Positions 25,656-63,986 of a stretch of DNA of 64,000 nucleotides are shown piece after piece. Both the position numbers and the translations under genes were made by a program. Source of the stretch: Eledone cirrhosa (Eukaryota); the NCBI GenBank assembly GCA_964016885.1, contig OZ024753.1, forward strand, positions 20,832,001 through 20,896,000, given 5' to 3'. Each line of letters begins with the position of its first letter. Position 1 is the first letter of the stretch. A model generated the notes under the pieces. It was not told where the DNA came from, ran no database searches, and was given only the letters and a program-made list of their open reading frames with translations.

Positions 25656-25764
25656 TTCCTTACAAAGTATTTCATTCTTGTGGCAGAATTAATATTGTTA
25701 TGGAAGCAATAAACAACGTTTATATACCTCGATAGAATTGTATCTGTTAGACTCTTCAGAGGAA
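25656..25764 (-). ncRNA. Candidate type I hammerhead ribozyme with 79-nt stem II region
   Basis: Minus strand: UUCCU-CUGAAGA-[GUCU...AGAAU]-GAAA-UACUUUG-UA-AGGAA; stem I is a perfect 5 bp. Confidence 0.65.
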
Positions 25765-25919
25765 AGTGGTTTGCTTTTAATGCTCTCACAAAAGGGATAA
25801 TCATAGTACCTCTACAATCACTAACATAAATAATAACTCTAGCCACCATAATCACCCTAGCTCCATTGGGTGAATTCTTCGCATGCAAAGATCAGTGGGA
25901 AGAATTGTTGTTCCATGTG

Positions 25920-27385
25920 GTGTTACACCCTGAGGTGGTACACCCTGGGGTGGCTATAGGGTCCAATCCTGGACCTGCAGGCTCTGCTACAGTTGGGACA
26001 AGTGTATATTTGGTCAGTTGATGGTTGAGTGGTGGACAGCTTCTTTCTTTGATGTTTGTCTTCAGCCGCCGCCTTCCTGCCTTCCTTAAAGCTGGCTGCA
26101 GCTGTTTTGATGGTCACTCTTCATTTCTCTCTGTCCTCTGCCAGGTGTTCCCATTCCCTGTCATCAATATTGCCTTGGGTCAGCTGGTGCTTGAAGAATT
26201 TTTCTGGGGCCCCTTGGTTTTGATTGCCTTGACATATTTCTCCATAGAAAACTGTCTTTGGCATCCTAGAGTCGTTCATGCTCGAGACATGACCTGCCTA
26301 GCAGAACTGTCTCAGCATCAGAATGCTCTCAAACGCTTGTGATATTGGCCCTCTTGAGAACTTCCTCATTTGTTACATAGTCCTGCCAACAGATACCAGT
26401 GATGAAGTGAAGGCATCACTGATTGAATCTTTCCAGTAGCTTGATCTGCTTCCAGTACAGGACCCAGCTTTCAGCTCCACAGAGGAGGGTAATGACTACA
26501 ACAGCTTTGTAGACTCTGATCTTTGTGGTGAGGCGTAGAAAGTGGTTCTGCCACACACATTTCTGCAAGCATCCAAATGAGCTGCTGGCCTTGGCAATAT
26601 GGTTGTCAATATCCTTTGCTGAGGTAGCGTTGTTGGTAATGACACTTTCCAAGTATGTGAAGTGCTCCACTGCACTGAGGAGGTGCCCATTGATGTTAAT
26701 CTACGGAGGGTGGAACTCTTCATTTGGTGGCTTCTAGCACATGACTAGGGGCTGATGGTTAGGCTAAAGGATTTGGTTGCCCGAGAAAAGCAGCTGACGG
26801 CTTCCTTAATGTGTGATACAAGGGCATAGTCGTCTACAAACAGCAGCTTCAGGATCAACTCCTCCATTGTTTTGGTGTGAGTGAGCAGTCATCACATGTT
26901 GAACACACTCCCATCAGTACGGAACTGGATGTCAATGCCCTGCCACAGATCTTTCTTTGCTTTGCAGAGCATCATGCTGAAGAAGATTACAAATACATTT
27001 CATGAAGAAGATTACAGCCTTGTTTCATGCCATTCTCAATGAGGAATTAATCAGAGGGACCATCATTGTGCTTTACCTGTCCCTGCTCTCCTGTGTTGTG
27101 TTGCTGGAGCATGGTCAGGAATGTTAGCAGACACCCAAGTTTGCTGAGGATCTTCCACAGTCCATCCCTACTAACTGTATCAAATGCCTTCGTCAGGTCA
27201 ATGAAGGCAGCATGCAAGGGCATATTTTGCTTTCTACATTTTTCTTGGATCTGGCAGAGGACAAAAGTCATACCTGTGGTCCTGTGGTTAGCACAGAATG
27301 TGCATTAGCCTTCTGGGAGGACATCCTCTGCAATGGCTGGGATGAGTCTATTGAGCAGGACAAACTAGAATTTTGCCTGCGGTTA
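25920..27385 (-). mobile_element. Decayed RTE (BovB-like) LINE: RT and C-terminal C2H2 finger
   Basis: AFIDLTKAFDTVSRDGLW, LLFVDD, KIRVYKAVVVITLLCGAESW, CPNCSRACRSRIG; multiple stops and frameshifts. Confidence 0.9.
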
Positions 27386-27429
27386 AGAGACTCCACATTT
27401 TAAACACCAATTAAATTTATTACTATAAT

Positions 27430-28032
27430 GGTTTCTTATATAGGCACAAGGCCAGCAATTGAGGGGGAGGGGAAAATCGATTAAATCAACCCCAGTACGT
27501 CACTGGTACTTTATTTTATCGACCCCATAAAGATGAAAGGCAAAGTTAACCTCAGAACGCAAAGGGCCATAACTCTATGCTGCAAAGCATGTTATCTGAC
27601 ACTCTACCAATTCTGTCAATCCACTGCAAATATATTATAATTATAATAATAATTGTTTCTACTTTTGGTACAAGGCCAGCAATTATCCCAGTGTATTACT
27701 GGTACTTTATTTTATCGACCCCATAAGGATGAAAAGCAAAGTTAACCTCGGTGGGATTTGACCTCAGTCCGTAAAGGGACGTAACTGTGCTGCAAAGCAT
27801 GGCGTCCGACCTTCTACCGATACTGCCTCTGATTTAGAAACAAGACCAACAATTATGGGAGGGGGAGGGAAAGTTGATTAAGCCCCAGTGAGTTACTGGT
27901 ACTTTATTTCATTGACCCTATAAAGATGAAAGGCAAAGATAACCTTAGTTGGTTTTGAAATCAGAACGTAAAGGGTTGTAACTATATGCTGCAAAGCATT
28001 TTGTCTGACACCCTACTGATTCTGCCAATCCC
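27430..28032 (-). mobile_element. Three head-to-tail SINE family A copies
   Basis: ctggtactttattttatcgacccc...aaggcaaagttaacctc repeated near 27500, 27700 and 27895. Confidence 0.85.
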
Positions 28033-28765
28033 TCTCTGACCAACTATATAATACAAATATACATAGAAATATGTTTTATAAAGGCACCCCCCAAGTATAT
28101 AACAAAATAGCTACTGTAAATTTGAACTCAAAATCAATAGAATGATAGTTTGGGATTACATCTATTTGGCAATTTCTCTTAATAAAGTTCTATCAAAACT
28201 CATTACTGGTCCTGTTCTAACCATAGATCTCATTACTCCATTTTCCCATTAGGATGTAATTAGTAATTTACAGATCATTACAAATAAAGAAAAGCAAATA
28301 AAAAAACAATTTATTGCTAACCAAAGATATCTAGTTAATAGTTCTATAAATGTGGGAGAAAATAAATCTAACAATTTGTTAAACTTAACATAGTCTATCA
28401 AGAAATTGACACCTTAATATCACCTTCTAAATATCACTGACTATTAACCCTTTACTCTATATTTACTGTTATATTTTCATGGTAATGACTTTACTTCACA
28501 TAATTATCTCACATAATATCGAATCTATGAGATTTTGATATTATTTATTTTGATAACAATAACTTAACATCAGTATGAGCTGCTGGTTAAAGCCTGTTTG
28601 AACAGAAAGAGGTGAGAGAATTCAATTGCACTATCTTTAATTCTTCTTGTTTAATGGTGTATAACTTTTTAACCAATTTCTTTAGAAAGATCTACCAAAT
28701 GTCATCAATGATTAGCATTGAAACTACAGAAGTTAGGCAAGCTTTTAGTTTAGTTTAATTTTATT

Positions 28766-28940
28766 TGTGTGAGAGAGAGATCCTGTGTATGTATGTGTGA
28801 TAGAGAGAGAGACAGCCTCTGTGTGTGAGAGAGAGAGAACCTGTGTGTGTGTGTGTGTGTGTGTATGTGTGTGTGTGTGTGAGAGAGTCTGTGTGTATGT
28901 ATGTTTGTGTGTGCATGTGTGCAGAATATGACTGTATATA

Positions 28941-29000
<60 letters not shown>

Positions 29001-29015
29001 CACGTATATATGTAT
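28766..29015. repeat. Compound (GA)/(GT)/(TA)/(TATG) microsatellite
   Basis: Direct reading. Confidence 0.95.
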
Positions 29016-31372: not shown

Positions 31373-31383
31373 TATGTATATAT

Positions 31384-33410: not shown

Positions 33411-33413
<3 letters not shown>

Positions 33414-33464
<51 letters not shown>

Positions 33465-34656: not shown

Positions 34657-34687
<31 letters not shown>

Positions 34688-34970
34688 GGAAATTCTAGTT
34701 TACTTGAAGCATTGCGTAATGAGGTATAAACGTTTGGAGTTAGAAGGCCAAAACAATGCAGGTATGGATATAGAATATAAATACAAATGCAAAAGATATT
34801 GCTAACAATTAGTCTTAAATTTCGAGATAATATCTCTTCTTCGGAGGGAAGTAAAGGGGTTAATCCAGTGTTCTAATTAGCTTGCCAAGTCATGTTGACA
34901 GGAAATGGTATAGAAATTCCATTCTATTTCTAATGTCAAAGAGTGAAGGTTAGGTGGATAAAGAGTTGTC

Positions 34971-36189
34971 ATCATCATCATCATCATCACCGTTTTACGT
35001 CCGTTCTTCCACGCTAGCATGGGTTAGACGGGTTGTCCTGTTGTGGGCAGTGTCTGGTCGGCTGACCATGCCTTGCTCATACAGGAACTGATTTGGCTTG
35101 ATTTCTACAGCTGGATGCCCTTCCTAACACCAACCTCATTTACAGTGAGTGCTGGGTGCTTTTTCGTGGCGCCTACACGTCCACTTTACAGTGTGGGCTG
35201 GGTGCTTTTTTGCCGTGGCACCTCCACGACCACCTTGCGGTGGGGGGTGTGGGGGCATATTGTCTATATGCTTCAGCTTGTACCCATGGGAGGTCGGGTA
35301 CTCTGTATTACTGCGTGACGCCAGAAGTCACGGTCGTGTGTCATTGTCTTTGAGAGGTGTAATTGGGTAAGGTCGGCTTTTATCACCTCATCCCAGGTCA
35401 TCTTGGGTCTCCCCACTCTGCGGTTTCCATCAACTTCTAGTGCTCTGCACCTTTTTATGCAGCTGTCATCCTTCATACGCATCACATGTCCATACCAGCG
35501 CAACCGCCTCTCCTGCATACAGCATTTGATTCCTCTTATGCTCAGTCTCTCTCTCAATTCATTTATGCTTTGTCGTTCACGTATATTATTGTTACACATC
35601 CATCGGAGCATGCAGGCTTCGTTTCTCTCTAATCTACGTAAGTCTTCCACCTTCAGCGCCCAGGTCTCGCTACCATGCAACATCGCTGTTCGGATACACG
35701 CATCATACAGTCTGCCTTTCATTCTGAGGGAGAAGCCTTTTGCAGCTAGCAGTGGTAGTAGTTCCCTAAACTTCTTCCATCCCGTTCTTACCCTAGTTAT
35801 TGCACTTTCTGAACACCCACCTCCGTTGCTAATTCGGTCACCTAGGTAGCAGAAGCTGTCTACTGTTTCTACAGGGCCCTCCCAGAGATTGGTGGTACTT
35901 GTTTCCTGTGGCTCTTTGCTGTTTGCTGTCTCAGCACAGCTGCTGCATGTGAATCCTACATTCTTAATTAAGCTTCCTGAGATACCGCTACATCTCTTGT
36001 GTACCCATTGTTTGCATTTGGGGCAGAGAATGGAGTTCCTACCTACACCTTTCCTACATACTGAGCAAGGCCATTTCCCTGAGGGGATCTGGGTTCTGTT
36101 TTCTCATCTACTTACAAGGACCTTAGTCTTTGTCGTGTTGACTTTGAGACCCTTTCATTCTAGTCTCTGCTTCCAGGTTTGGAATTTAT
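34971..36189 (-). mobile_element. 5'-truncated RTE LINE nested in the Penelope-like element
   Basis: ORF 35273..35722 (KGRLYDACIRTAMLHGSETW, RRLRWYGHV); Cys/His finger near 35990-36080; (ATG)n tail at 34971. Confidence 0.92.
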
Positions 36190-36436
36190 TCTCCCTTTAA
36201 AAAGGGTTTGGACATGTATGTCTAAGTGTGTATGGGAGAATATGTGAAGGTGTAAGCATGCGTGTGTGTGAGAGTGAGAGGATATGTTTATATGTAAATG
36301 TGGGGGCTAGATGCTCTATCATGTTGAAACTGGTCTTTATGTGTGTGTGAGAGAGAATAAGTGGAGGTGTAAGCATGTGTGTGTGTGTGAGAGAGAGAGG
36401 GTACGTGGAGGTGTAAGTGTGGGGCTAGGTGTTCTA

Positions 36437-36945
36437 TTAAGTTATAAATTGGGTGTTGAGTTCTAGTCTATTATTGATTGGTGGTTGTGTTTTGTCTATA
36501 ATCAGTGCTTCCTTAATTTTAAGATTGCTGAGGTTTCTTTCCTTAGCTTCTATCCTAACTGTTATGGTTTTGTCTGTGTTTTTGCATTTCACTAGGTGTT
36601 TCTTAAATGAGGAAGCGTTAATATTGAGGTGTTCTTTTATTCTTATGTGAAGTGGTCTGGTGGTGCTACCTATGTAGAAATTGCTGCATTTGTCACACTC
36701 TAATCTGTATATGACGTAAGCCTGGTGGCATAGGTCTGTGTCATTGATGGGGCAGTTGGCTAGCCTGCAGCGGCTGTCATGTCTGGTGGAGTGTCTTTTG
36801 GTTAGCTGTCCATGTAGAGAAGGTCCTTAGTGGGCTAGCTGGATATCTAGTCCCTCTCATCTGATAGCTCTGCGGATGGCTGTTGTTGTTTCATCACTGA
36901 AGTGTGGGAGCTTCAGGAAGCAGGTGTTAGTGCCTTGGGTGTGGT
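36437..36945 (-). pseudogene. Penelope GIY-YIG endonuclease C-terminus (not in the ORF track)
   Basis: Manual translation: CRLANCPINDTDLCHQAYVIYRLECDKCSNFYIGSTTRPLHIRIKEH...LKIKEALIIDKTQPPINNRLE; two upstream stops. Confidence 0.88.
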
Positions 36946-37348
36946 GAACTCAACACCCAATTTTTGACATGATATAGCACCTAGCCCCACTCTTACACCT
37001 CCACGTACCATCACACATACACGCACGCTTACACCTCCACTTATTCTCTCTCACACACACACATACACACATAAAGACCAGTTTTAACATGATAGAGCAT
37101 CTAGCCCCCACATTTACATATAAACATATCCTCTCTCACACACACACACACACACATGCATGCTTACTCCTTCACATATTCTCCCACACACACTTAGACA
37201 TACATGTCCAAACCCTTTTTAAAGGGAGACAACTCTTTATCCACCTAACCTTCACTCTTTGACATTAGAAATAGAATGGAATTTCTATACCATTTCCTGT
37301 CAGCATGACTTGGCAAGCTAATTAGAACACTGGATTAACCCCTTTACT

Positions 37349-37386
37349 TCCCTCCGAAGAAGAGATATTATCTCGAAAATTAAGGA
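37349..37386 (+). ncRNA. Candidate minimal hammerhead variant in the Penelope terminal repeat (mirror copy ~34812-34848, minus strand)
   Basis: CCU-CCGAAGA-A-GAGAUAUUAUCUC-GAAA-AU-UA-AGG; U4C substitution and short stems. Confidence 0.45.
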
Positions 37387-38588: not shown

Positions 38589-41500
38589 TGATATTTCATC
38601 TTCCTCACCTATAGTCTGATGTAGAGTGAAGGCCCATTCACACGGGCCATTCTAGCCACTTTCACCCATCTTTCATAAAAACGGCTGGGGTGCAGCACCT
38701 CTCTCTCCATCCTGATCCTTCTTCCGAAATGATATCGGAAGAAACGGACCAGTTGTTGGCCAGAGAGAAAGGTGTCTGACCTCAGTCCTTTCAGACGCGT
38801 CCACCATACAACCTCTTTCGCCATGGCTATTACGCACAGAAACACCGCCTCTCCTTCATTTTTGAAGAGGGGAGGCGGCTTGATCGTTACAATAGACTCG
38901 GTGGTCAACCGGATCGGTCCCACCCTTGAAAGCAGTTGTTCGACATAACCCCACAGATCGGCAATGCCCGAGCAGTGTACCAATGCGTGTGCAACGGTTT
39001 CCTCGTCGCACACGCATCTGAGACAGATCTTTTTCGAGGGGTCCCTACCCGGGCGCCCGTGTCTGTAGATCCTTTCTCGAACGGGCAGAGCCCTTCGGTA
39101 GCACTGCCAGGCCAGGGACCTCTGGAAGTTATCCATGGGTCCCGGGCTGAATGTCCTACCGAACAGGTTGGCCAGTTCGTCTTCCTCCATGCCTAGGGCT
39201 TCTCCGAGGGCGTCGTCGCACCTGCTAACCACCAGCCCTCTATGGAATGACGAGGTGGATTCTCCACTGACAGCTGGGTCCGCCTGCCAGAGAGCCGTGA
39301 GCACCTGGGCACACTCGGTGTGCCAGGCGCCCAGTTTTCTCGGTCTTTGCTTGACCCAGGATTGCAGCTCGGTGAGTGAGATGAGTCTGGGAAAAGCTCG
39401 CCTCACAAATGGGGCCCACACCGGTTGACCGGTGAGGAATACCTGGAGGTACCGTAGCCTTAATGCGGGTTTACGTATCATTAGCCACGGCATCCCCAGC
39501 CCTCCTTTCGAAGGGTGTTGACAGCAGATGGATCTCCTCACCATCGAAGCCCGCTTCTTCCAAAGGAATTGGAAGAGTGCGCGCTCCATTTTGTGCTACC
39601 GAAGTGCTCTGCCCGTTCGAGAAAGGATCTACAGACATGGGCGCCCGGGTAGGGACCCCTCGAAAAAGATCTGTCCCAGATGCGTGTGCGACGAGGAAAC
39701 CCTTGGTAAGGCACAATGGTCAGGCGATAGTAGATGACGGACGCTATATAAGTGTTCGCCACCTCCGCCCGACCTTTCAGGGACAGTTTGCACTCGGCCC
39801 ACTTCTGGGTCAGTGCAAACACCCTGTTCATCACCTCACCCCAGTTCTTCTCCACATGGAGGTCTGGTCCGAACCAGACCCCGAGCAACTTCACCGGGCC
39901 CTCTGTCCAGCGCCCGACGACGCCATCGGAGGGCATCGATCTTCCCCTCCACGTGCCGAGTTGCAGACCGATCGACTTGTCCCAGTTCAGCTTAGCCCCT
40001 GTAAACCTTTCGTACTCCTCCAGTAAGGTGCCGATTGCCCCGATTTCCGAGGCCGTCGACACCATTACAGTTACGTCCTCGGCGTAGGCCGACACCGCTT
40101 TCCGCAATCCATGTTCCAACGGGATGCCCTGCAACAACTCCAACTTCCACAGCAGTGGCTCTAGAGTCATTACATATAGAAGGGAGGAGAGAGGGTACCC
40201 TTGTCGGATGGACAGCGCGATTTCGAACGGCTCCGTAAGGTAGCCGTTCACCTTGACCCTAGAGCAGATGCGGCTGCTGTGCATGGCATTGATCCAGCCC
40301 CTGAAAATGTGTCCGAAGCCTGCCGCCGCTAGCACCGCATCCAGGTAACCATGGTCGACCTATCGAACGATTTAGATTGATCCAAGTTGATTAGGGCCCC
40401 ACCAAAGCCGGGTTCATTGCCAACCCTCTCTATGATGTATCGCATGAGGTGGAGGTTGTCGTGGATGGACCTGGATGGGATAGCACATGTCTGCGCATCT
40501 CCCACCAGGTTGCCCACGTCAAGCGCCAACCTCTTTGTTAGCACCTTGGCCAAAATCTGTAACTCTGTATTTAGCAGAGTTATGGGCCTGAAATTATTTA
40601 TATCGTCCCCCTTGTTCTCGTCCTTCCTCACTAACATGACTACGCCCTTGATCACAGCCCAGGGAATTCTCCCGTTCTTTTGCCAGTTGCAGTAGACCAC
40701 CTCGAGGAGATCGGAGAACAAGTCCGGCATAGCTAGATATAGTTCGTATGGAAGACCATCGAGACCCGGGGATTTGCGTTTGCCGCATTGGCTCAGCACG
40801 TTCTCTATCTCAGCGGCTGAAATCGGCTCCTCGCAGGACTTCGCCTCCCTGTCCGAGAGACGCGGCAGGCCGTCGAGGTATGGACCGAAGTCCACTTCCC
40901 CAACCGTCTCCCCGCCCCTTCCGAACAATCTGGCAAAGTGCTTTTGAAAAGCCTCACACATCTGCTTAAGTTCAAGGATCACCCGTCCATCCTGGTCTCG
41001 CAAAGACCGGATAGTGGATCTACTCCCTCTTTTGGCTTCTACTCCCTCTTTTGGCCCAGCTAACAGCTTTCGTCCCCTCGTTTCCCAGAGCACGTATTTT
41101 GCTTCGGACGATGCAGCCTTCGTGTTTCGCGTCGAAGAACTGGCCCAGGGCCGTTCTCGACGCTAGCACTCTGGCCACGTCGCCGCTTCTAATTGCCTCT
41201 TCTACACTATCTACCAACTCCCTTTCCTTCCTATTTCTATTTGAGGCTAACTCCTTACTAAATTCTATAGAGACTACTCTAATCTCTCTTTTGAGAGATC
41301 CCCACCACCTGCTGTTGACGATGGCGCTCATCAACCGCTCCTTAACTAAAGTGCTAATCCGGTTCCTGTAAGCCCTACTTGCCGGTAAGGACAAGTTGAG
41401 CTTCCAGTAACCGGGTCCCTGTCTATGCGTTCTGTCAAGGTTGACCATGCATCTCACTAACTTGTGGTCTGAATAGCCAACCATGCGTATTTTTGGACAA

Positions 41501-41880
41501 CTTAAAAAGTCCTTATCCTTATTTCTAACTAAGAACCTATCTAGGTACGACCTAGATGATCCGCTATGATTTGCCCAAGTCCAGGTTGGCGCAGTCGGAA
41601 AATCTAGTCGATATCTATAAGCCAGGTCAAATCGACCGATTAACCCTTTGAGGCTATTATACCCCTCTCTATCGGGACAGGCCCCTACGTAGTCCCAGCG
41701 TGCATCTAGGATACCATTCCAGTCCCCCACTAATAGCAAGGAGCGGGCTGTCCCTAGAAAAGTCTCCAGACGATTGACCCGAAAGGGCCGAAGGCGGCAA
41801 CCAACCTAAACGCTCCGCCTTCACCACTGCCAAGGTCCAGAACCACTCGTCGACCCTCTGGGTCCAAATGTACCGTCTGT
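38589..41880 (-). pseudogene. LINE ORF2 (APE endonuclease, RT, zinc finger), frameshifted
   Basis: ORFs 41020..41739, 40329..41093, 39538..40335 and 38609..39589. Confidence 0.92.
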
Positions 41881-43046
41881 GTTGAGTGGGATAGTGTTCT
41901 CTGTTGTTTTTTCTTGTTGTCGCGGTGGTGGTGGTTGTGTTGTTATTTGTGGTGTTGGTAAAAGTGGGTTTTTTTTTTGTCAATTGAGGACAGGCAGCCC
42001 TTAGGTGACCTCTGCTTGCACAGTGGTAACATACGGGCCGCCTACCCTCAACCGAAATGTTTATGTAGGTCTGTCCATCCAGAGGTACTCTCTGTGGGAT
42101 TTTCATTATACGTTCTGGGCTCATCTGCACCAGAATTTCGACGCTAGTCCCACTAAATATATCTCTGGAGGATTTTCCTACTGAGATCAAAGTCAATTAG
42201 GCCATAAAGTATCCACCAAATATCTACTTTGGGTCTTATACATGTCATTTTTATTTTTTGCGTTCTTTTTCCCATGTATGTAGGGAAAAATGTAAAATGG
42301 GTGGACACAATGGGCGCGATGGAATATTTTTGTGCTGTTATGTTGTTTCTCATAAGCACCGAGATGTTGCCGAAAAGTTTGGCTTTCTGAATAAATAAAA
42401 TGTTATCCATGTGGTTCCTTAATACTAGCTCAATCTCACTCTGAGATAGTTGAGATGGTTTTTTTTATGCATTTGAGATTGTCCTGAAAACCACCGTGTT
42501 CAGGGCATTTTCTCCCCTTAGTTCTTGTGGTGAATTTATGCTAAATGACCCATTGGGTCCAAAAGTCACATATTGTTTAGCTTCTTCCAACTTTTGTTTC
42601 GCGTTGGTTAAATCCAAAAGTTGAAATATTTCCTTTTTTTTTATGGTATCAGCAAAAGAAATTTTGCTGTTGTTGTCACTGTTGTTTGTATTTTCTTTGG
42701 TGTTTGTGTTGACATTTTTTTTCTTTTGATTGGTATTGTTGGATGTGTTTTCAATTTTTTCATTTTCTGTATTTTTTGGTGTCTGTTGTGGGCTGTTATT
42801 TTCATTTTTTGTTGTGTGAATTTCCATTTCTTTACGAAAGGAAGTGTTTACTACATATATATCTTTCTGTGTGTGAATACATGTGACGTTTGTGACGTCA
42901 GGCATGTTCAGTTGCTTACAAGCAGCTGAAGCTTGTTCCACTTCTAGATGTTGAGGCGATGATGTTGGCCTTTCTTTGTCCATGTCTGCTACTACCTGCT
43001 GGTCAAGTAGGCATGGCTTTCCCTTCCCATCTTCTTGTTTTGGCAA
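41880..43046 (-). pseudogene. LINE ORF1 (gag-like, CCHC zinc knuckle), fragmented
   Basis: ORFs 42465..43046, 42153..42410 and 41669..42196 are collinear; SFADTIK and VEGRRPVCYHC motifs. Confidence 0.8.
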
Positions 43047-43449
43047 AGAAGTAGGTGCTTCGGCTATTTAAAAAAAATGTACTGTTTTGCAAAAATATTT
43101 TGGATGTTTTTGCCCTGAGGGGCACGATATTTTGGAGGACTGACCAGATCAAAATTTGACCTGTCAGTCCCTCTACAAATTGGTATAAAATTAAAAGTTC
43201 GCAATGACGAATTTCTAAGGAAATTTAAACAAAACTTACCGAGCAAGTTTAACACATGTCCATCCCAGATAGATGATAGACAGACAAACAGACATTCTCT
43301 GTTTTAGTAATATAGATTATTATGAGTTGGTAGATCTAGTAAGTTCTTTGTTAACTTCAGCAGGAAGACTTTTAAAGATTCCTGGTTAACTTTCCTGGAG
43401 AACTTTCTCGCATTTGTCAGTGGCGATTGTCAAACTGAGATACACTTCT

Positions 43450-44995: not shown

Positions 44996-45129
44996 ATTGT
45001 TTCTGAAGAAGAGAGCGAAATGGATGTGGGACATCAAGACCAATTAAATGGAGTTACATAACTGCTATCAATTAGTCGCTATTTTGATTATCAAGATCAA
45101 TCAACCTTCTGAAATGATTGTAAAACAAT
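44996..45129 (+). ncRNA. Candidate type I hammerhead ribozyme with 101-nt stem II region
   Basis: AUUGUUU-CUGAAGA-[AGAG...UUCU]-GAAA-UGAUUG-UA-AAACAAU; stem I is a perfect 7 bp. Confidence 0.72.
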
Positions 45130-48992: not shown

Positions 48993-49028
<36 letters not shown>

Positions 49029-49629
49029 TCAGAGAAAGCGTTAAGCTATACTCAACAAACATTAGGATATACCTTAGTATAATGCCAATTTTGTGTTTGG
49101 GGTGCTAACTATATGTATTTTGTGGAAAGCCAGTTGTATTATTTTAAATGAGATATAATTAAAATTAAAATATATCTCTCTTTCCAAACAATTGTTTCAT
49201 TATAAGTTTTCTACAAGTTGGGAGAATGTGTCCGGTTTATGTAGAAGTCCGCATATTTTTCTGTAAGAACATATGCAGGTGGGCACTTATAAATCATCAG
49301 TGGATGCCCGTCAAACTTTGATATAAGAAAAAATTCCTTACCGCAGTTAGTTTTCATGTCAGCTAAATAATGACCGCCAAATTTGAAATTCCAGCAGTCT
49401 CAGAATGAGGAATTTCACAGCGTCACGAAGCGGAAAAGGGAGGCAATCGCGAAACACAAGAAAGTAAAATAATTTACACGTGGGTTAATTAGTTTTTTCA
49501 ACAATTTCAACCCTGCGTGTTAAGAACTCAATTAGATTTTTTAAAAATAAATGTATGCATGTATTAATTATACACACATATAGATATTTTCTTAGGCTAA
49601 AAACAGAGATATGATACCAAAATAATAAT

Positions 49630-50912: not shown

Positions 50913-50972
50913 TTTCATTCTGATGATTGAAAGCAAAACTTTTTGCTTTTAAGAAACCACTGGTAAATGGAA
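50913..50972 (+). ncRNA. Type I hammerhead ribozyme with fully canonical core
   Basis: UUUCAUU-CUGAUGA-UUGAAAGCAAAA-CU-UUUUGCUUUUAA-GAAA-CCACUGG-UA-AAUGGAA; all three stems pair; predicted cleavage after A50965. Confidence 0.88.
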
Positions 50973-51828: not shown

Positions 51829-54040
51829 TTTCTTTTATTTGCCACCAGGGCATCAAAAGTGGGACAAGTACAATGGGGGGAGTTTACAAAACAAGGCGTC
51901 CTCAATAAGGAGGAGGCAATAACAATATATAAAAATAAAATAAAATATAACAAAAAATAAAATTTATAACAAAGTCCTCAATAGAGAGGAGGCGCCTTGG
52001 GGGGTCGCACACACCCCCGAAAAAAGTGTGCAACCCTTCTCCTCAGGAGCACAGAGAAGGGGTGCTCCCTTGGTCTTTCATCTTCCTCACCTATAGTCTG
52101 ATGTAGAGTGAAGGCCCATTCACACGGGCCATTCTCGCCACTTTCACCCATCTTTCATAGAAACGGCTGGGGTGCAGCACCTCTCTCTCCATCCTGATCC
52201 TTCTTCCGAAATGATATCGGAAGAAACGGACCAGTTGTTGGCCAGAGAGAAAGGTGCCTGACCTCAGTCCTTTCAGACGCGTCCACCATACAACCTCTTT
52301 CGCCATGGCTATTACGCACAGAAACACCGCCTCTGCTTCATCTTTGAAGGGGGGAGGCGGCTTGATCATTACAATAGACTCGGTGGTCAACCGGATCGGT
52401 CCCACCCTTGACAGCAGTTGTTCGACATAGCCCCACAGATCGGCTACGCCCGAGCAGTGTACCAATGCGTGTGCAACGGTTTCCTCGTCGCACACGCATC
52501 TGGGACAGATCTTTTTGGCGGGGTCCCTACCCGGGCGCCCGTGTCTGTAGAGCCTTTCTCGAACGGGTAAAGCCCCTCGGTAGCACTGCCAGGCCAGGGA
52601 CTTCTGGAAGTTGTCCATAGGTCCCGGGCTGAATGTCCTACCGAACAGGCTGGCCAGTTCGTCCTCCTCCATGTCTAGGGCTTCTCCGAGGGCGTCGTCG
52701 CACCTGCTGCGTACCAGCCCTCTATAGAATGTTGCGGTGGAGTCTCCACTGATAACCGGATCCGCCTGCCAGAGGGCGGTGAGCACCTGGGCACACTCAG
52801 TGTGCCAGGCGCCCAGTTTTCTCGGTCTTTGCTTGACCCAGGATTGCAGCTCGGTGAGTGAGACGAGTCTGGGAAAGGTTCGTCTCACAAACGAGGCCCA
52901 CACCGGTTGTCCGGTGAGGAATACGTAGAGGTGCCGTAGCCTTAATGCGTGTTTACGCATCATTAGCCACGGCATCCCCAGCCCTCCTTTCGAAGGGTGT
53001 TGACAGCAGATGGATCTCCTCACCATAGGAGCCCGCCTCTTCCAAAGGAATTGGAAGAGCGCGCGCTCCATCTTGGTGAGGGTTTCCCTTGGGCAGGGCA
53101 CTACGGTCAGGCGGTAGTAGATGACGGACGCTATGTAGGTGTTCGCCACCTCCGCCCGACCTTTCAGGGATAGTTTGCAACTGGCCCACTTCTGGGTCAG
53201 TGCAAACACCCTGTTCGTAACCTCCGCCCAGTTTTTCTCCACCTGGAGGTCCGGTCCGAACCAGACCCCGAGCAACTTCACCGGGCCCTCCGTCCAGCGT
53301 CCGACAACGCCATCGGAGGGCATCGGTCTGCCCCTCCACGTGCCGAGTTGCAAACCGATCGACTTGTCCCGGTTCAGCTTAGCCCCTGTGAACTTTTCGT
53401 ACTCCTCCAGTAAGGTGCCGACCGCCTCGATTTCGGAGGCCGTCGACACCATTACTGTCACGTCATCGGCGTAGGCCGACACCGCTTTCCGCAATCCCGG
53501 TTCCAAAGGGATGCCCTGCAACAACTCCAACTTCCGCAGTAGTGGCTCGAGAGTCAACACATACAGAAGGGAGGAGAGAGGGCACCCTTGTCGGATGGAC
53601 CGCGCGATTTTGAACGGCTCCGAGAGGTAGCCGTTCACCTTGACCCTAGAGCAGATGCGGCTGCTGTGCATAGCAGTGATCCAGCCCCTGAAAACGGGTC
53701 CGAAGCCTGCCGCCGCTAGCACCGCATCCAGGTAACCATGGTCGACCCTACCGAACGCCTTAGATTGATCCAAGTTGATCAGAGCCCCACCAAAGCCGGG
53801 TTCGTTCCCAACCCTCTCTATGATGTATCGCATGAGGTGGAGGTTGTCATGGATGGACCTGGACGGGATAGCGCATGTCTGCGCATCTCCCACCAGGTTG
53901 CCCACGATAAGCGCCAACCTCTTTGCTAGCACCTTGGCCAAAATCTGTAACTCTGTATTTAGCAGAGTTATGGGCCTGAAGTTACTTATTTCGTCCCCCT
54001 TGTTCTCGTCCTTCCTCACTAGCGTGACTACGCCCTTGGT
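51829..54040 (-). mobile_element. 5'-truncated L1/Tx1-type LINE, same family as 38343-43266
   Basis: High identity to 38343-40650 including the 3' UTR. Confidence 0.95.
52091..54019 (-). CDS. Uninterrupted RT plus C-terminal zinc-finger part of LINE ORF2 (642 aa, 5' truncated)
   Basis: RPITLLN, LDQSKAF, QGCPLS, YADD, KLLG, GGLGMP, CPRC...ETVAHALVHC. Confidence 0.9.
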   Translation of the reverse strand: MRKDENKGDEISNFRPITLLNTELQILAKVLAKRLALIVGNLVGDAQTCAIPSRSIHDNLHLMRYIIERVGNEPGFGGALINLDQSKAFGRVDHGYLDAVLAAAGFGPVFRGWITAMHSSRICSRVKVNGYLSEPFKIARSIRQGCPLSSLLYVLTLEPLLRKLELLQGIPLEPGLRKAVSAYADDVTVMVSTASEIEAVGTLLEEYEKFTGAKLNRDKSIGLQLGTWRGRPMPSDGVVGRWTEGPVKLLGVWFGPDLQVEKNWAEVTNRVFALTQKWASCKLSLKGRAEVANTYIASVIYYRLTVVPCPRETLTKMERALFQFLWKRRAPMVRRSICCQHPSKGGLGMPWLMMRKHALRLRHLYVFLTGQPVWASFVRRTFPRLVSLTELQSWVKQRPRKLGAWHTECAQVLTALWQADPVISGDSTATFYRGLVRSRCDDALGEALDMEEDELASLFGRTFSPGPMDNFQKSLAWQCYRGALPVRERLYRHGRPGRDPAKKICPRCVCDEETVAHALVHCSGVADLWGYVEQLLSRVGPIRLTTESIVMIKPPPPFKDEAEAVFLCVIAMAKEVVWWTRLKGLRSGTFLSGQQLVRFFRYHFGRRIRMEREVLHPSRFYERWVKVARMARVNGPSLYIRL

Positions 54041-54074
54041 CAGTAAAAATAGAATAGATGGTCATTGATGTCCG

Positions 54075-54350: not shown

Positions 54351-54710
54351 AATTAAAAATAACTGTTATTAATGTTTTTTACATGGTAAATGATTTTAAC
54401 TCAATTTTCTATCATATATGGACATTTGTCAAAGTCAAATTATATTCTTACATCCCATGAAGATATTGTTACCAACTGTAATAGTCTTTTCATACCATAA
54501 ATATTAGCTGATCTTGGTCTCTGCTGATGCATGAAGGAAACATTGGCATTTCCTCAACAACACTTATGAAGAATTCACATCTGAAATAAAGAACAGTGCA
54601 GAGAAAGCTGTCAGACAAGAAACTTCCCATTAATAACCTGTTAGTAATTATTGTAGTCACCTCAACACTGAGTGATAGCTGTATGGGCCATGACTTAGTT
54701 TTTCATTAAG

Positions 54711-56614: not shown

Positions 56615-59050
56615 TCATCTTCACACGTCCATTTTCCACATTAACACGAGTTGCCCCATTATGAGACAAGTTAGATCAGGTGACCATGCCTTGCTCAATC
56701 AGAAAGATTCTGGCTTGTTTTTTTACAGCTGTATGCTCTTCATAATGCAAACCACATTTACAGTGTGTACTGGGTGCTTTTTATCATGGCACCAAGAAGA
56801 CCACTTTACAGTGTGGACTGGATGTTTTTTATCATGGCACCAAGACAACCACTTTACAGTGTGGACTGGATGCTTTTTATCATGGCATCAAGACGACCAC
56901 TTTACAGTGTGAACTGGGTGCTTTTTATTGTGGCACCAAGACAACCACTTTACAGTGTGGACTGGATGCTTTTTATCATGGCACCAAGACAACCACTTTA
57001 CAGTGTGGACTGGATGCTTTTTATCATGGCACCAAGACGACCACTTTACAGTGTGAACTGGGTGCTTCTTATTGTGGCACCAAGACAACCACTTTACAGT
57101 GTGAACTGGGTGCTTCTTATTGTGACACCAAGACAACCACTTTACAGTGTGAACTGGGTGCTTTTTATTGTGGCACCAAGACAACCACTTTACAGTGTGA
57201 ACTGGGTGCTTCTTATTGTGGCACCAAGACAACCACTTTACAGTGTGAACTGGGTGCTTTTTATTGTGACACCAAGACAACCACTTTACAGTGTGAACTG
57301 GGTGCTTCTTATTGTGACACCAAGACAACCACTTTACAGTGTGAACTGGGTGCTTCTTATTGTGGCACCAAGACAACCACTTTACAGTGTGAACTGGGTG
57401 CTTTTTTATTGTGGCACCAAGACAACCACTTTACAGTGTGAACTGGGTGCTTTTTATTGTGACACCAAGACAACCACTTTACAGTGTGAACTGGGTGCTT
57501 CTTATTGTGACACCAAGACAACCACTTTACAGTGTGAACTGGGTGCTTCTTATTGTGGCACCAAGACAACCACTTTACAGTGTGAACTGGGTGCTTCTTA
57601 TTGTGGCACCAAGACAACCACTTTACAGTGTGAACTGGGTGCTTCTTATTGTGACACCAAGACAACCACTTTACAGTGTGAACTGGGTGCTTCTTATTGT
57701 GACACCAAGACAACCACTTTACAGTGTGAACTGGGTGCTTCTTATTGTGGCACCAAGACAACCACTTTACAGTGTGAACTGGGTGCTTCTTATTGTGGCA
57801 CCAAGACAACCACTTTACAGTGTGAACTGGGTGCTTCTCATTGTGGCACCAAGACAACCACTTTACAGTGTGAACTGGGTGCTTCTTATTGTGACACCAA
57901 GACAACCACTTTACAGTGTGAACTGGGTGCTTTTTATTGTGACACCAAGACAACCACTTTACAGTGTGAACTGGGTGCTTCTTATTGTGACACCAAGACA
58001 ACCACTTTACAGTGTGAACTGGGTGCTTCTTATTGTGGCACCAAGACAACCACTTTACAGTGTGAACTGGGTGCTTCTTATTGTGACACCAAGACAACCA
58101 CTTTACAGTGTGAACTGGGTGCTTCTTATTGTGACACCAAGACAACCACTTTACAGTGTGAACTGGGTGCTTCTTATTGTGGCACCAAGACAACCACTTT
58201 ACAGTGTGAACTGGGTGCTTCTTATTGTGGCACCAAGACAACCACTTTACAGTGTGAACTGGGTGCTTCTCATTGTGGCACCAAGACAACCACTTTACAG
58301 TGTGAACTGGGTGCTTCTTATTGTGACACCAAGACAACCACTTTACAGTGTGAACTGGGTGCTTTTTATTGTGACACCAAGACAACCACTTTACAGTGTG
58401 AACTGGGTGCTTCTTATTGTGACACCAAGACAACCACTTTACAGTGTGAACTGGGTGCTTCTTATTGTGACACCAAGACAACCACTTTACAGTGTGAACT
58501 GGGTGCTTCTTATTGTGACACCAAGACAACCACTTTACAGTGTGAACTGGGTGCTTCTTATTGTGACACCAAGACAACCACTTTACAGTGTGAACTGGGT
58601 GCTTCTTATTGTGGCACCAAGACAACCACTTTACAGTGTGAACTGGGTGCTTCTTATTGTGACACCAAGACAACCACTTTACAGTGTGAACTGGGTGCTT
58701 TTTATTGTGGCACCAAGACAACCACTTTACAGTGTGAACTGGGTGCTTCTTATTGTGGCACCAAGACAACCACTTTACAGTGTGAACTGGGTGCTTTTTA
58801 TCATGGCACCAAGATGACCATTTTACAGTGTGAACTGGGTGCTTCTTATTGTGGCACCAAGACAACCACTTTACAGTGTGAACTGGGTGCTTCTTATTGT
58901 GACACCAAGACAACCACTTTACAGTGTGAACTGGGTGCTTCTTATTGTGGCACCAAGGCAACCACTTTACAGTGTGAACTGGGTGCTTCTTATTGTGGCA
59001 CCAAGACAACCACTTTACAGTGTGAACTGGGTGCTTTTTATCATGGTACA
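56615..59050 (-). repeat. RTE 3' UTR (56615-56750) whose internal 48-bp unit is expanded to ~48 copies (56750-59048)
   Basis: Unit ACCACTTTACAGTGTGAACTGGGTGCTTCTTATTGTGRCACCAAGACA; flank matches 34995-35140. Confidence 0.95.
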
Positions 59051-61185: not shown

Positions 61186-61508
61186 AATGCATTAAATGTC
61201 TGTGCATGAGAATGTGTGTATGTATATGTATGTATGTATATGTGAGTCTATGTATGTATGTGTACTACATGTGAGAGAGTGAGTGCGTAGGTTTTTTATG
61301 TACGTGTGTGTGATCGTATATATGTGGATATATTTCTGTATTTATATCCGTTATTTTTGTTTTGGATTTTGTTTCTAACCGTTTTTATTTTCTAATGCTC
61401 GAGATACACGGGCCGTTGAATTCGAGGCCCGTGATTTGTCATTCTACATGCTTGTCTGTGTTTGGATGGTCCACAGATTTGATGTGATTTTTGTTGTGTT
61501 GACACTGA

Positions 61509-62028
61509 TCTGAGGATCAGGCAGACTTGAAGTCTAGTCAGGGGTGCCAACCCAGGTCTGAGGATGAGGCAAACTTGGAGTCTAGTCTGGAGTGCCAACC
61601 CAGGTCTGAGGATGAGGCAAACTTGGAGTCTAGTCTGGGGTGCCAACCCAAGTCTGAGAATCAGGCAAACTTGGAGTCTAGTCTGGGGTGCCAACCCAGG
61701 TCTGAGGAACAGGCAGATTGGAGTCTAGTCTGGGGTGCCAACCCAGGTCTGAGGAACAGGCAGATTGGAGTCTAGTCTGGGGTGCCAACCCAGGTCTGAG
61801 GATCAGGCAGACTTGGAGTCTAGTCTGGGGTGCCAACCCAGGTCTGAGGATCAGGCAGACTTGGAGTCTAGTCTGGGGTGCCAACCCAGGTCTGAGGATC
61901 AGGCAGACTTGGAGTCTAGTCTGGGGTGCCAACCCAGGTCTGAGGATCAGGCAGACTTGGAGTCTAGTCTGGGGTGCCAACCCAGGTCTGAGGATAAGGC
62001 AGACTTGGAGTCTAGTCTGGGGTGCCAA
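61509..62028 (+). repeat. 11-copy 47-48 bp minisatellite TCTGAGGATCAGGCAGACTTGGAGTCTAGTCTGGGGTGCCAACCCAGG
   Basis: Unit starts at 61509, 61557, 61605, 61653, 61701, 61748, 61795, 61843, 61891, 61939, 61987. Confidence 0.97.
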
Positions 62029-62070
62029 CTGAGATACCAGCAAGCTGCTTAAGAAACATTTGTAACCAGG
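61982..62070 (+). ncRNA. Candidate type I hammerhead ribozyme with 58-nt stem II, overlapping the last minisatellite unit
   Basis: CCAGGU-CUGAGGA-[UAAGGCAGACUUG...CAAGCUGCUUAA]-GAAA-CAUUUG-UA-ACCAGG; AATAAA follows. Confidence 0.72.
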
Positions 62071-62134
62071 ATTGAGCAATAAATTTCTTGCGTAACACCT
62101 CCATATTGTTCTTATTATATGTATATATATAATC

Positions 62135-62378: not shown

Positions 62379-62699
62379 TAACACACATATATATATATAT
62401 ATGTACATGCATGCATCATGATACTGATATACATATATATATATATTTGTGTGCACTTACATATACCATACATATACATATATATATATAGATATATACT
62501 CACATATCATACATATACATACACACATTATATATATATACTCACATATATATATATATCATCATCATCCTTGTAATTAAACATCCATCTTCATGGGAAG
62601 GATGGATTGACCATTAGGGAGAAAAACACGTCAGAGGACCATGTTTAGCTCACTTGACATACATGCACACACATACATACAAATAGACTTATACACACG

Positions 62700-63500
62700 T
62701 AAAAGGCATGCATGTAAGTAAAGAGTACTTACATAAGCTCAGTACTGTAAGATGGAGCGAAAGAGGGTGTAGGTGGGGTGGAACGGAGGGAGAGGGAAGG
62801 GGTATATGTTGAGTATAGTGTTTTTTGAAACTATCATTCTGGAGGCAGAACTGGTTTACCGGATTTATATGTTACGTAGTTATTGTGCATGCAGAGTTCG
62901 GCCAGTGTTCAGAGGGTTTGTTCAGGGTCAGGCCCTTGGCAAATAATATTTCATAGCTCTCCAAAATACAAAGGTCGCAGCACTTATGACCACCTATATA
63001 TTAGCACGCTCTGGAGTAATTTCCATTTGAGCATGACGGAGGAGGGTTCATCTTGAGATGCCAGACTTCAGCAGCTAGTCTCATTTGGTTGGATATGACC
63101 TTGTCTTCTGAACGAGTGGGTATGGGTTCATCACCAGATCTTAAAATTAGATGTCATTCTGATATATGTTTTTATGCTGTTGTCAATGCCTGAGACAACA
63201 TCGCATTTATATATGATGTCATTTATCAGGCATTTGTTTTCGAGTGGGCATGCTTCCTTATTGTGGAAATTGCACAAGGGTCCCATCAAGGGGTAGTTTC
63301 AGGGCTAGCAGGCTTATTTAATTTAGTAGTGTTGAGGTTGGCTATATTCCTAGCTAAGTTAGGTGTAGTGGATTTTTTTTTTCGCCTGGAAGTGAAAGAT
63401 ACCAAGTTGTTGTCACAACACCTTTCTAGGAGAGGGAAACTCTGAAAAAAAACCTGTGGCTTCGGAAGCATCCAATGATGTTGACCAGTTCTCCTTTTTG
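62700..63500 (-). mobile_element. Second Penelope-like element, decayed GIY-YIG region of a different lineage
   Basis: Manual translation: [12 protein letters not shown]...LCNFHNKEACPLENKCLINDIIYKCDV...KTYIRMTSNFK...HKCCDLCILESYEILFAKGLTLNKPSE. Confidence 0.75.
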
Positions 63501-63524
63501 TATATATATATATATATATGTATA

Positions 63525-63577
<53 letters not shown>

Positions 63578-63582
63578 GTATG

Positions 63583-63671
<89 letters not shown>

Positions 63672-63723
63672 GTAAATATATATGTATATATATATGTGTA
63701 TATATATATATGTATATATATAC
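63500..63723. repeat. (TA)n microsatellite with G interruptions
   Basis: Direct reading. Confidence 0.95.
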
Positions 63724-63946
63724 AGTATTGACGTATCGAGAGAGAGATAAAAAAAAAGGAGGGAGGATAGGTGATACATATAGTTATTTGCCAAGTAGCG
63801 TATGCCAAAGGTGCTCGATACTAGTGCCGGCAGTATTAAATATTCGAAGTGTTAATATTTAGTGGGCTAGAGAGTTAGCAGAGCGTAAGCACGTGGGAAA
63901 GTAGGAAATCGGAGAATAGACCATTAAAACATGTTTATTTAAAACA

Positions 63947-63986
63947 GCACCTACGTACATTTCGCCCAGTTGGGCTTTTCAAGGGC
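63947..63986 (-). ncRNA. Candidate minimal type I hammerhead, U3-A8 variant
   Basis: Minus strand: GCCC-UUGAAAA-GCCCAACUGGGC-GAAA-UGUACG-UA-GGUGC, then AAUAAA. Confidence 0.7.

What the first reader, a model, noticed from the sequence alone, without database searches (positions are those of the whole stretch)
25656..63986. Six loci with type I hammerhead motifs in ~40 kb, three with a greatly enlarged stem II
Seen: complete stem I - CUGANGA - stem II - GAAA - stem III - UH - stem I topology at 25656-25764(-), 44996-45129(+), 50913-50972(+), 61982-62070(+) and 63947-63986(-), plus a weaker pair at 37349(+)/34812(-). The arm sequences are unrelated, yet five loci share a GUA cleavage triplet and a short stem III. 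Stem II regions run from 12 to 101 nt. Known: Penelope-like elements and retrozymes carry short type I hammerheads, usually with small stem II. Inference: this genome has several families of ribozyme-bearing, mostly non-coding retroelements in which stem II holds a long insert. Descriptor searches with short loop limits would miss these.
Basis: partly seen in the sequence, partly recalled or inferred. Interest (0 to 1): 0.88.

Follow-up and report, generated by a model that had tools for sequence, protein, structure and literature searches.

The report
Long and branched retroelement hammerhead arms
The window holds leftover ends of Penelope-type jumping genes, each carrying a hammerhead motif predicted to be a self-cutting RNA, and several have a side arm two to four times longer than in their published relatives, one of them branched, so standard searches miss them; cutting is untested.

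Summary
The motifs are real. Each named locus belongs to a dispersed repeat family whose copies restore a type I hammerhead with a self-complementary stem III. Strict motifs: 3 in 39.6 kb against 0.09 in shuffles. The density is ordinary for this genome: 71 motifs in 790 kb of evenly spaced samples, 3.9 in shuffles.

Stem II regions of 58, 79 and 101 nt are family traits and fold as single rods. Four families (25.7k, 50.9k, 62.0k, 64.0k) are 3' ends of ORF-bearing, Hydra-type Penelope-like elements, so 'mostly non-coding' is only partly right. The 45.0k family has no parent found; the 62.0k family also has protein-free units. The 64.0k core is the known U3-A8 variant. The 'weaker pair' is one insertion.

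Most window copies are decayed. No cleavage or RNA data. New variant of a known kind.

The parts
25656..25764 (-). Type I hammerhead, family F25, 79-nt stem II region; core intact, C15.2 changed to U, stem II decayed in this copy
25434..25818 (-). Whole F25 copy: 5'-truncated end of a Hydra-type Penelope-like element with the long 3' tail
   Evidence: extent by homology; ORF upstream in relatives
44996..45129 (+). Type I hammerhead, family F45, 101-nt stem II region (102 in the family), palindromic stem III ACGAUCGU in the family; this copy decayed and cut short 10 nt after stem I
49183..49309 (-). Missed seventh locus, family F49: GGGC 49309-49306, stem I 49304-49301 with 49186-49183, core CUGAUGA 49300-49294, 95-nt branched stem II 49293-49199 with unpaired GCCCAC 49284-49279, GAAA 49198-49195, palindromic stem III, GUU triplet
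49028..49182 (-). 3' end of the F49 element, running into (TA)n at 48995-49027, 159 nt after the cleavage site (178-185 nt in four homologues)
50913..50972 (+). Type I hammerhead, family F50 (Hydra clade), 26-nt stem II region with 11 bp; near-intact copy, hammerhead fold is the lowest-energy fold
61509..62029 (+). 48-bp tandem array (10.9 copies) made of the F61 core and the 5' side of stem II; an expansion inside one hammerhead
61982..62070 (+). Type I hammerhead, family F61, 58-nt stem II region (59 in the family, 8-bp basal helix); stem I broken in this copy
61196..62125 (+). Whole F61 copy (3' UTR, hammerhead, short 3' end into TA repeat); start approximate
63947..63986 (-). U3-A8 variant hammerhead, family F63 (Hydra-type), 12-nt stem II; its inverted partner arm lies about 100 nt beyond the window end
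34812..34848 (-). Degenerate minimal hammerhead (CCGAAGA core) of family F34, direct arm; stem I 3' side deleted
37350..37386 (+). Same F34 motif in the inverted arm of the same insertion; 3-bp stem I, palindromic AAUU, UUA triplet
36539..36946 (-). GIY-YIG end of the F34 ORF (87.5% identical to the relative in L098), separated from its hammerhead by a roughly 1.2-kb LINE-like insertion at about 34970-36190

Best explanation
These loci are 5'-truncated ends of several families of Penelope-like retroelements, mostly Hydra-type, and each end carries a type I hammerhead motif that likely cut the source element's RNA as a dimer, with stem II lengthened into a rod or a three-way junction that is predicted to leave the catalytic core intact. 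Shown: the cores, the family membership, the RT and GIY-YIG remnants upstream in longer copies, insertion into TA or CA repeats with a short and a long 3' end and head-to-head inverted arms, and stem II regions from 12 to 102 nt. Inferred: stem III is too short to hold as a hairpin but is self-complementary, so two copies in a tandem transcript or two RNAs would pair through it to complete the core. The long arm stacks outward from the core, where natural type II hammerheads have no loop at all, so length would be tolerated, while selection keeps the arm paired so that it does not invade the core. In the branched family a conserved GGGC just 5' of stem I would pair with the unpaired GCCC of the junction, most likely as the stem I-stem II contact. 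The job of cutting is most likely to trim read-through or tandem transcripts, and to release units that protein-free derivatives can use. Most insertions were copied from RNA not cut at that hammerhead. Most genomic copies, including four of the five GUA copies here, are decaying.
For: Families restore the core. In 57 distinct F45 copies position 7, the one free core position, is the most variable of 131 columns (19 G, 16 U, 13 C, 7 A, 2 gaps) while its neighbours hold. Majority stem II regions fold as one rod closing at the core: z -2.0 (F45, 22 of 30 copies), -3.4 (F61, 24 of 25), -5.5, -1.7, -2.0 (three F25 subfamilies). F25 halves pair better within subfamilies (-16.1 kcal/mol, n=88) than across (-12.6, n=464; 0 of 5000 label permutations). 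F49: RNAalifold finds the three-way junction unaided; on four sequences 91.9% of cells pair (0 of 500 shuffles) and 7 of 40 pairs change on both sides (1 of 500); no unbranched fold within 6 kcal/mol in two of three members. Stem III duplexes -2.9 to -10.0 kcal/mol, hairpins all positive; F49 uses three different palindromes. Hydra marks: RWK and DKT in the F50 ORF, CxCX5C, CxxC and CxH in F25, F61 and F63 parents (definition). Two 3' ends and inverted arms as in PMC8557442 and PMC11167929; 21 of 29 inner arms run 5' past the cleavage site.
Against: No cleavage or RNA data. RNAalifold on raw F45 and F25 alignments gave no hammerhead, and F61 shows 0 two-sided changes. Column-wise covariation in F25 is weak (8 pairs, 110 of 500 shuffles), and for subfamilies b and c the within-group pairing is not the best in the table. 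Non-CpG core positions in F45 deviate only a little less than others (0.082 against 0.111), and 26 of 57 copies keep the whole core. The F49 test rests on four related sequences and a structure drawn from them; the GGGC/GCCC pairs hardly vary, and in a nested model this helix displaces stems I and II. No parent ORF was found for F45 or F49. PLE hammerheads cleave poorly in vitro (PMC4209133), 8 of 9 Xenopus retrozyme dimers did not cleave (Li et al. 2026), and cleavage was dispensable for insertion in vitro (PMC11167929).
Confidence: 0.7

Rival explanations
1. The long or branched arm is a selected domain with its own job: it gates cleavage (for F49 by switching GCCC between the 5' GGGC and the stem I strand) or binds the element's RT-endonuclease, so that cutting waits until the RNP has formed.
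For: Arms are kept paired while their sequence diverges. Both F49 branches persist in the competing fold, and GGGY/GCCC is kept in 4 of 4. F45 has a second copy of the stem I 5' strand at its short 3' end that could compete for the 3' strand. The anole PLE hammerhead needs the element protein to cleave (PMC11167929).
Against: No shared sequence or length among families: a smooth range from 12 to 102 nt. Short-armed Hydra families are at least as abundant (F50, F63). No binding or kinetic data.
Confidence: 0.25
2. The long-armed motifs are catalytically silent relics: the fold is kept for a structural role in the pseudo-LTR (priming, template switching) and the core no longer cuts.
For: 21 of 29 inverted arms were copied through the cleavage site and only 4 of 29 stop within 8 nt after it, where stem I microhomology gives the same footprint. 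F34 tolerates a U4-to-C core change. Cleavage was not needed for insertion in vitro and no read ends were seen at the site in anole RNA (PMC11167929).
Against: Freedom at position 7 with fixed neighbours, the compensated U3-A8 core and interchangeable palindromes in stem III are what selection on a working core would leave.
Confidence: 0.15
3. The long-armed families are mainly protein-free retrozymes that spread as circular RNAs.
For: F61 has terminally redundant, ORF-free units (838 nt in L229; also L231, L246). No ORF was found for F45 in about 90 loci or for F49 in five. Li et al. 2026 link retrozymes to PLE pseudo-LTRs.
Against: F25 and F61 long hammerheads sit directly behind Hydra-type ORFs in several loci. 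No head-to-tail dimer was seen. F45 tails end at a fixed point in all 30 tail loci shown or earlier, and none ran on into further unit sequence.
Confidence: 0.15
4. The motifs are chance matches in AT-rich repetitive DNA.
For: A loose descriptor gives 5.3 hits per shuffled window; four of six window copies do not fold better than shuffles.
Against: Strict counts are 18 to 30 times the shuffled level, and relatives restore the canonical core and stems at every named locus.
Confidence: 0.02

Closest known systems
Hammerheads of Hydra-clade Penelope-like elements (Craig et al. 2021, PMC8557442, section 11 and File S2)
   Same: Type I topology near the 3' end, 3-4-bp near-palindromic stem III, often a U-U or single extra base at the foot of stem II, insertion into (TA)n, RWK/DKT and CxCX5C/CxxC/CxH protein motifs; includes an octopus member.
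   Different: By my count the longest Hydra stem II region in File S2 is about 26 nt and the longest in the whole table about 54 nt (a spike-moss element marked as deviant). Here 58-102 nt, one family branched. One-sided tails are 70-150 nt against the 30-40 nt described.
Minimal hammerheads of metazoan PLEs (Cervera and de la Pena 2014, PMC4209133)
   Same: Dimer-type design with palindromic stem III; U3-A8 core variant (64.0k); extra base after A9; F34 fits the minimal layout.
   Different: Helix II there is up to 7-8 bp and the descriptor allows a loop of 3-10 nt; it finds none of the window loci. The CCGAAGA core of F34 is not described in the parts read.
Animal non-LTR retrozymes (Cervera and de la Pena 2020, PMC7229834; Li, Clavereau and Pollet 2026, 10.64898/2026.07.22.740005)
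   Same: Protein-free units with a type I hammerhead derived from PLE ends; the F61 subfamily of about 840 nt fits.
   Different: Defined as tandem repeats with circular RNAs; no tandem dimer or RNA was seen here, and most families here have coding parents.
Pseudoknotted and type II hammerheads (Perreault et al. 2011, PMC3088659); discontinuous Clec2 hammerhead (reviewed in PMC2950038)
   Same: Stem II can be open altogether, and a helix between stems I and II can replace the loop-loop contact; large insertions are known in loops 1 and 3.
   Different: The passages read describe no long rod or three-way junction closing stem II in a type I hammerhead, and none in a retroelement.

Membership tests
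Type I hammerhead ribozyme | Core CUGANGA, GAAA and UH in order, with three stems | tested here: met
   Met for F25, F45, F49, F50, F61; F63 has the compensated U3-A8 core
Type I hammerhead ribozyme | Same core in F34 (34.8k/37.3k pair) | tested here: inconclusive
   CCGAAGA in most of 20 copies, stem I 3 bp
Type I hammerhead ribozyme | Position 7 free, other core positions constrained | tested here: met
   F45: most variable of 131 columns in 57 copies. F61 is invariant there in 24 young copies, which says nothing
Type I hammerhead ribozyme | Stems supported by compensatory changes | tested here: inconclusive
   Good for F49, mixed for F25, none within F45 or F61
Type I hammerhead ribozyme | Match to an Rfam hammerhead model | tested here: not met
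   No hammerhead among 134 matches in the window at E<=10 or in five family-typical loci at E<=0.01; the short-armed F50 and F63 also fail, so this reflects the models
Type I hammerhead ribozyme | Site-specific self-cleavage | not testable with these tools
   No RNA run listed
Hydra clade of C-terminal EN+ PLEs | RWK and DKT motifs in the RT | tested here: met
   F50 ORF in L108; that part of the ORF was not recovered for F25, F61, F63
Hydra clade of C-terminal EN+ PLEs | C-terminal GIY-YIG with CxCX5C linker, CxxC and CxH around the conserved E and N | tested here: met
   F25 parents L289, L290, L292, L296, L056; F61 parents L249, L250; F63 parents L073, L075, L076, read through stops
Hydra clade of C-terminal EN+ PLEs | Insertion into (TA)n | tested here: met
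   All families end in TA or CA repeats
Hydra clade of C-terminal EN+ PLEs | Placement in the clade on an RT tree | not tested
   Assignment is by motifs and by likeness to the Hydra sequences seen in the supplement
Hydra clade of C-terminal EN+ PLEs | A coding parent for F45 and F49 | tested here: inconclusive
   None found in the loci held; clade unknown
Hydra clade of C-terminal EN+ PLEs | DKT motif in F34 | tested here: not met
   F34 relatives have DKG and a different linker: a PLE of another clade
Penelope-like element insertion | Inverted 5'-truncated arm and a one-sided tail | tested here: met
   29 head-to-head junctions and two 3' ends per family; F34 and F63 show it at the window itself
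Naiad clade | GIY-YIG N-terminal to the RT | tested here: not met
   EN follows RT in L249, L250, L056
Non-LTR retrozyme | No coding capacity, unit with redundant ends | tested here: met
   Only for the F61 subfamily L229, L231, L246: longest ATG ORF 71-106 aa, no PLE hit
Non-LTR retrozyme | Tandem repeats with a hammerhead in each unit | tested here: not met
   No head-to-tail dimer noticed in the loci fetched; searches return only the top 40, so arrays elsewhere are not excluded
Non-LTR retrozyme | Circular RNA | not testable with these tools
   No RNA data

The most novel reading that the evidence does not exclude
Penelope-like elements of this animal lineage have turned hammerhead stem II into an evolvable domain. 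It includes a natural three-way junction that docks on stem I through a conserved 4-5-bp pseudoknot and can switch the ribozyme off, and some 40,000 long-armed copies among roughly 250,000 hammerheads in this genome are invisible to current descriptors and Rfam.
Probability: 0.3. Interest if true: 0.72.

Novelty: new variant of a known kind. Interest (0 to 1): 0.5.

Why it matters
Hammerheads in Penelope-like elements are known, but they were catalogued with descriptors that cap stem II near 24 nt. In evenly spaced samples of this genome 12 of 71 motifs have a stem II region of 40-110 nt (1.9 expected by chance), so counts in invertebrate genomes are probably too low, and elements reported to have only half a core may deserve a second look. 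A natural branched stem II with a predicted stem I contact would be a new architecture and a ready test case for how a dimer-type ribozyme is gated. The many subfamilies give natural sequence pairs for testing what the hammerhead does in Penelope transposition, which is still open.

Tried and rejected
Chance explanation for 50.9k and 62.0k, my first guess: rejected, both are large families with canonical cores. Naiad parentage, suggested by the 'half core' remark in PMC8557442: rejected, the EN is C-terminal. The GIY-YIG ORF in L035 and L041 looked like the F25 parent but belongs to another PLE with its own short hammerhead, inserted next to F25; the true link came from L056 and its relatives. 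RNAalifold on decayed copies gave nothing useful for F45 and F25. A cleavage footprint at inverted junctions: 4 of 29 within 8 nt after the site, confounded by stem I microhomology; two rows (L152 under F50, L161 under F63) were dropped as other families. The idea that GUA is shared because it overlaps a 5' splice site (GTAAGG, GTAAAA, GTAAAT, GTAACC, GTAGGT): not supported, since only 21 of 71 sampled motifs use GUA, and untestable without RNA. No RNA holder listed; laying two contig sets of unrecorded kind showed only repeat variation. Pattern scans of metagenome contigs for F49 and F61 found nothing. The relaxed-scan hits at 54557(-), 48327(-), 37423(-), 28550(+) and 59381(-) were not followed beyond reading 54557 and are probably chance. 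Arkhipova 2017 and Lunse 2017 are not held, and the supplement of the 2026 preprint was not seen; any of them could show long-armed examples.
Full report
Setting. The window is G000:C13:20832001-20896000 of a 3.0-Gb genome, rich in TA and CA repeats, with a 24-nt satellite over 1403-24331. It is probably a cephalopod; that is an inference from the likeness of one ORF to the octopus Hydra element in the supplement of PMC8557442 and from earlier scan notes, and I did not test it.

Observation. All named motifs are at the stated coordinates. Against 100 local dinucleotide shuffles of 24401-64000, a strict descriptor gave 3 loci against 0.09 and a relaxed one 7 against 1.54 (0 of 100 each); without any stem II test the margin shrinks to 12 against 5.34. 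Rfam reports no hammerhead in the window among 134 matches at E<=10, nor in five family-typical loci. My coding of the published minimal descriptor finds 0 in the window and 3 in 790 kb; with stem III relaxed, 1 and 34. The density is ordinary: one descriptor gives 3 motifs in 39.6 kb here, 50 in 515.7 kb of locus flanks and 71 in 79 evenly spaced 10-kb stretches, against 3.9 in ten shuffles. By stem II length the 71 split 36 (6-24 nt), 22 (25-39), 6 (40-69), 6 (70-110) and 1 (111-150), against 0.5, 0.5, 0.8, 1.1 and 1.0. Scaled up, that is roughly 250,000 motifs, some 40,000 with a 40-110 nt arm; these are rough figures from 0.03% of the genome.

Each locus is a repeat family. First-look candidates, which are not copy numbers: F45 611 and 1432, F25 29 and 60, F61 580, F50 1534, F63 2053, F34 2608. 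Relatives restore what the window copies have lost: C15.2, palindromic stem III, longer stems. In 57 distinct F45 copies that span stem II, core position 7 is the most variable of 131 columns (19 G, 16 U, 13 C, 7 A, 2 gaps), which is the known free position; 26 of 57 keep all 11 core letters, and non-CpG core columns deviate 0.082 against 0.111 elsewhere. F63 carries UUGAGAA, the U3-A8 variant described in PMC4209133. F34 carries CCGAAGA with a 3-bp stem I, and its two window motifs are the arms of one insertion around a GIY-YIG fragment at 36946-36539, split by a LINE-like piece. The 62.0k copy has a 48-bp unit repeated 10.9 times inside the hammerhead.

The long arm. Majority sequences fold as one rod closing at the core: F45 102 nt, z -2.0 (22 of 30 copies, chosen for having the 5' half); F61 59 nt, z -3.4 (24 of 25); F25 subfamilies 78-82 nt, z -5.5, -1.7 and -2.0. 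The window copies give 0.1, -1.3 and -1.4. RNAalifold on the raw copies gave no hammerhead for F45 or F25 and a rod with no two-sided change for F61, as expected of neutrally decaying copies but no support in itself. Across six F25 subfamilies (24 of 25 sequences, one false match dropped) the two halves pair better within than across groups (-16.1 against -12.6 kcal/mol; 0 of 5000 permutations after removing row and column effects), though not for groups b and c. A column test on a sequence-only alignment of 22 was weak: 79.5% paired (5 of 500 shuffles), 8 two-sided pairs (110 of 500). Stem III of all five families is self-complementary, with duplexes of -2.9 to -10.0 kcal/mol and no stable hairpin.

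The missed locus. At 49183-49309(-) lies a hammerhead with a 4-bp stem I, CUGAUGA, a 95-nt stem II region, GAAA, palindromic ACAAUUGU and a GUU triplet. Its stem II has an 8-bp base and two hairpins (z -5.2). Homologues were found in L095, L338 and L376 (whole) and L364 (part), with a further 3'-end piece in L369. RNAalifold predicts the same three-way junction on three sequences with 7 two-sided changes among 33 pairs. On four sequences my structure has 91.9% of 160 cells paired (0 of 500 shuffles) and 7 of 40 pairs changed on both sides (1 of 500), spread over stem I, the basal helix, both branches and stem III; slid partners give 28-44%. The sample is small and related, and the structure was drawn from it. 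Stem III differs among members but stays self-complementary. The unpaired GCCC of the junction matches GGGC or GGGU just 5' of stem I in 4 of 4, but these pairs hardly vary, and in a nested model that helix displaces stems I and II. It is either a pseudoknot of the kind shown to speed other hammerheads (PMC3088659) or an inhibitory fold. The element ends in (TA)n 159-185 nt after the site; no ORF was found. A second family of 82 nt also folds branched in one copy but not clearly in others.

Parents. F50: an ORF with RWK and DKT starts about 220 nt after the hammerhead in L108. F63: GIY-YIG with CxCX5C upstream in L073, L075, L076. F61: RT and GIY-YIG remnants on the same strand ending about 500 nt upstream in L249, L250, L252, and also ORF-free units with redundant ends (838 nt in L229; L231, L246). 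F25: GIY-YIG, a 3' UTR and an F25-type long hammerhead in L056, L285, L289, L290, L292, L296. These match the Hydra definition in PMC8557442 section 11; no tree was built. The ORF in L035 and L041 is a different element. F34 has DKG and is another clade; Pfam GIY-YIG scores below its cut-off there (E 7.7e-4). F45 has no parent in the loci held.

Insertion layout. F45 ends 50-59 nt after the cleavage site in 47 of 74 hits and at 190-205 in 16; F61 at 50-59 in 33 of 56 with a second group at 120-140; F63 near +61 or beyond +200; F50 near +39 or +105. Head-to-head pairs usually join one short and one long end. This is the inverted arm and one-sided tail of PLEs, explained by two internal RT start sites in PMC11167929, with longer tails here. 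Of 29 junctions, 21 inner arms run 5' past the cleavage site, 4 stop within 8 nt after it and 4 further downstream, so most templates were uncut there.

Mechanism. Shown: anatomy, families, parents for five of seven, layout. Inferred: dimer cleavage through stem III in the source elements; tolerance of the long arm because stem II points away from the core and is open in natural type II hammerheads; selection to keep the arm paired; a trimming role for transcripts. Untested: any cleavage, expression or circle. The 50.9k copy is the one most likely still able to fold and cut.

Comparison with print. File S2 of PMC8557442 lists Hydra stem II regions up to about 26 nt and one spike-moss case of about 54 nt, by my count. 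PMC4209133 gives helix II up to 7-8 bp. Large insertions are on record for loops 1 and 3 (PMC2950038). Eight searches listed no paper on long or branched stem II in PLE hammerheads. What I saw: PMC4209133 parts 1-2 of 4 and supplement passages; PMC8557442 passages, section 11 and parts of the supplement; Li et al. 2026 parts 1-2 of 5 and passages; PMC3088659 passages and section 7; passages only of PMC11167929, PMC7229834, PMC2950038, PMC10085705 and PMC6962438. Arkhipova 2017 and Lunse 2017 could not be read. Earlier scan notes report long-stem-II PLE hammerheads in this genome and others; they gave me the Hydra lead and the 2026 preprint, and I tested the Hydra link myself. No note matched the 45.0k or 49.3k sequences.

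Verdict. A real feature and a new variant of a known kind. The association with Penelope-like elements, the dimer design and the U3-A8 core are known. The 58-102 nt arms and the branched arm with a predicted stem I contact are not in the papers read. Interest 0.5.

Noticed in passing
window 1403-24331: A 23-kb satellite of a 24-nt unit, about 967 copies, 87% matches.
   Followed up: no
window 56750-59041: A 48-bp tandem array, 47.7 copies, 96% matches, that reads open in several frames; the unit resembles part of a common dispersed repeat of this genome.
   Followed up: no
window 62908-63274 (-): A decayed Hydra-like GIY-YIG fragment (37% identical to the one in L076), separate from the 64.0k copy; no hammerhead seen behind it.
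   Followed up: partly
window 38612-43067 (-) and 52094-54061 (-): Long open frames that look like pieces of LINE-type endonuclease and reverse transcriptase genes (likeness recalled, not searched).
   Followed up: no
L316:895-1030 (+), also L109, L242, L357, L351: Another family with an 82-nt stem II region, palindromic ACAAUUGU and GUU; branched in the best fold of L316 but not in L109 or L242.
   Followed up: partly
L303:9575-9700 (+), L376:6077, L078:2659-2781 (-), L335, L363, L180:205-322 (+): Further unrelated families with 74-92 nt rod-like stem II, one with the U3-A8 core and a Hydra-like EN fragment near its inverted arm.
   Followed up: partly
F45 family, e.g. L103:1510-1680: The short 3' end repeats the stem I 5' strand, so the 3' strand has two partners; about half of the copies that span stem II are truncated within 10 nt upstream of the core.
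   Followed up: partly
F25, F45, F61, F63 families: The short 3' end lies 50-62 nt after the cleavage site in four unrelated families, which may mark a fixed spacing between the hammerhead and an RT start site.
   Followed up: partly
L108, hammerhead to ORF start: In F50 the GUA triplet begins a GT...AG stretch of about 70 nt with a plausible acceptor ahead of the ORF; an intron in the 5' UTR is possible but untested.
   Followed up: partly
79 sampled stretches L298-L376: 17 of 71 motifs have an AUA triplet with a palindromic AUAU-type stem III and 8-bp stem I, a very common family group.
   Followed up: no
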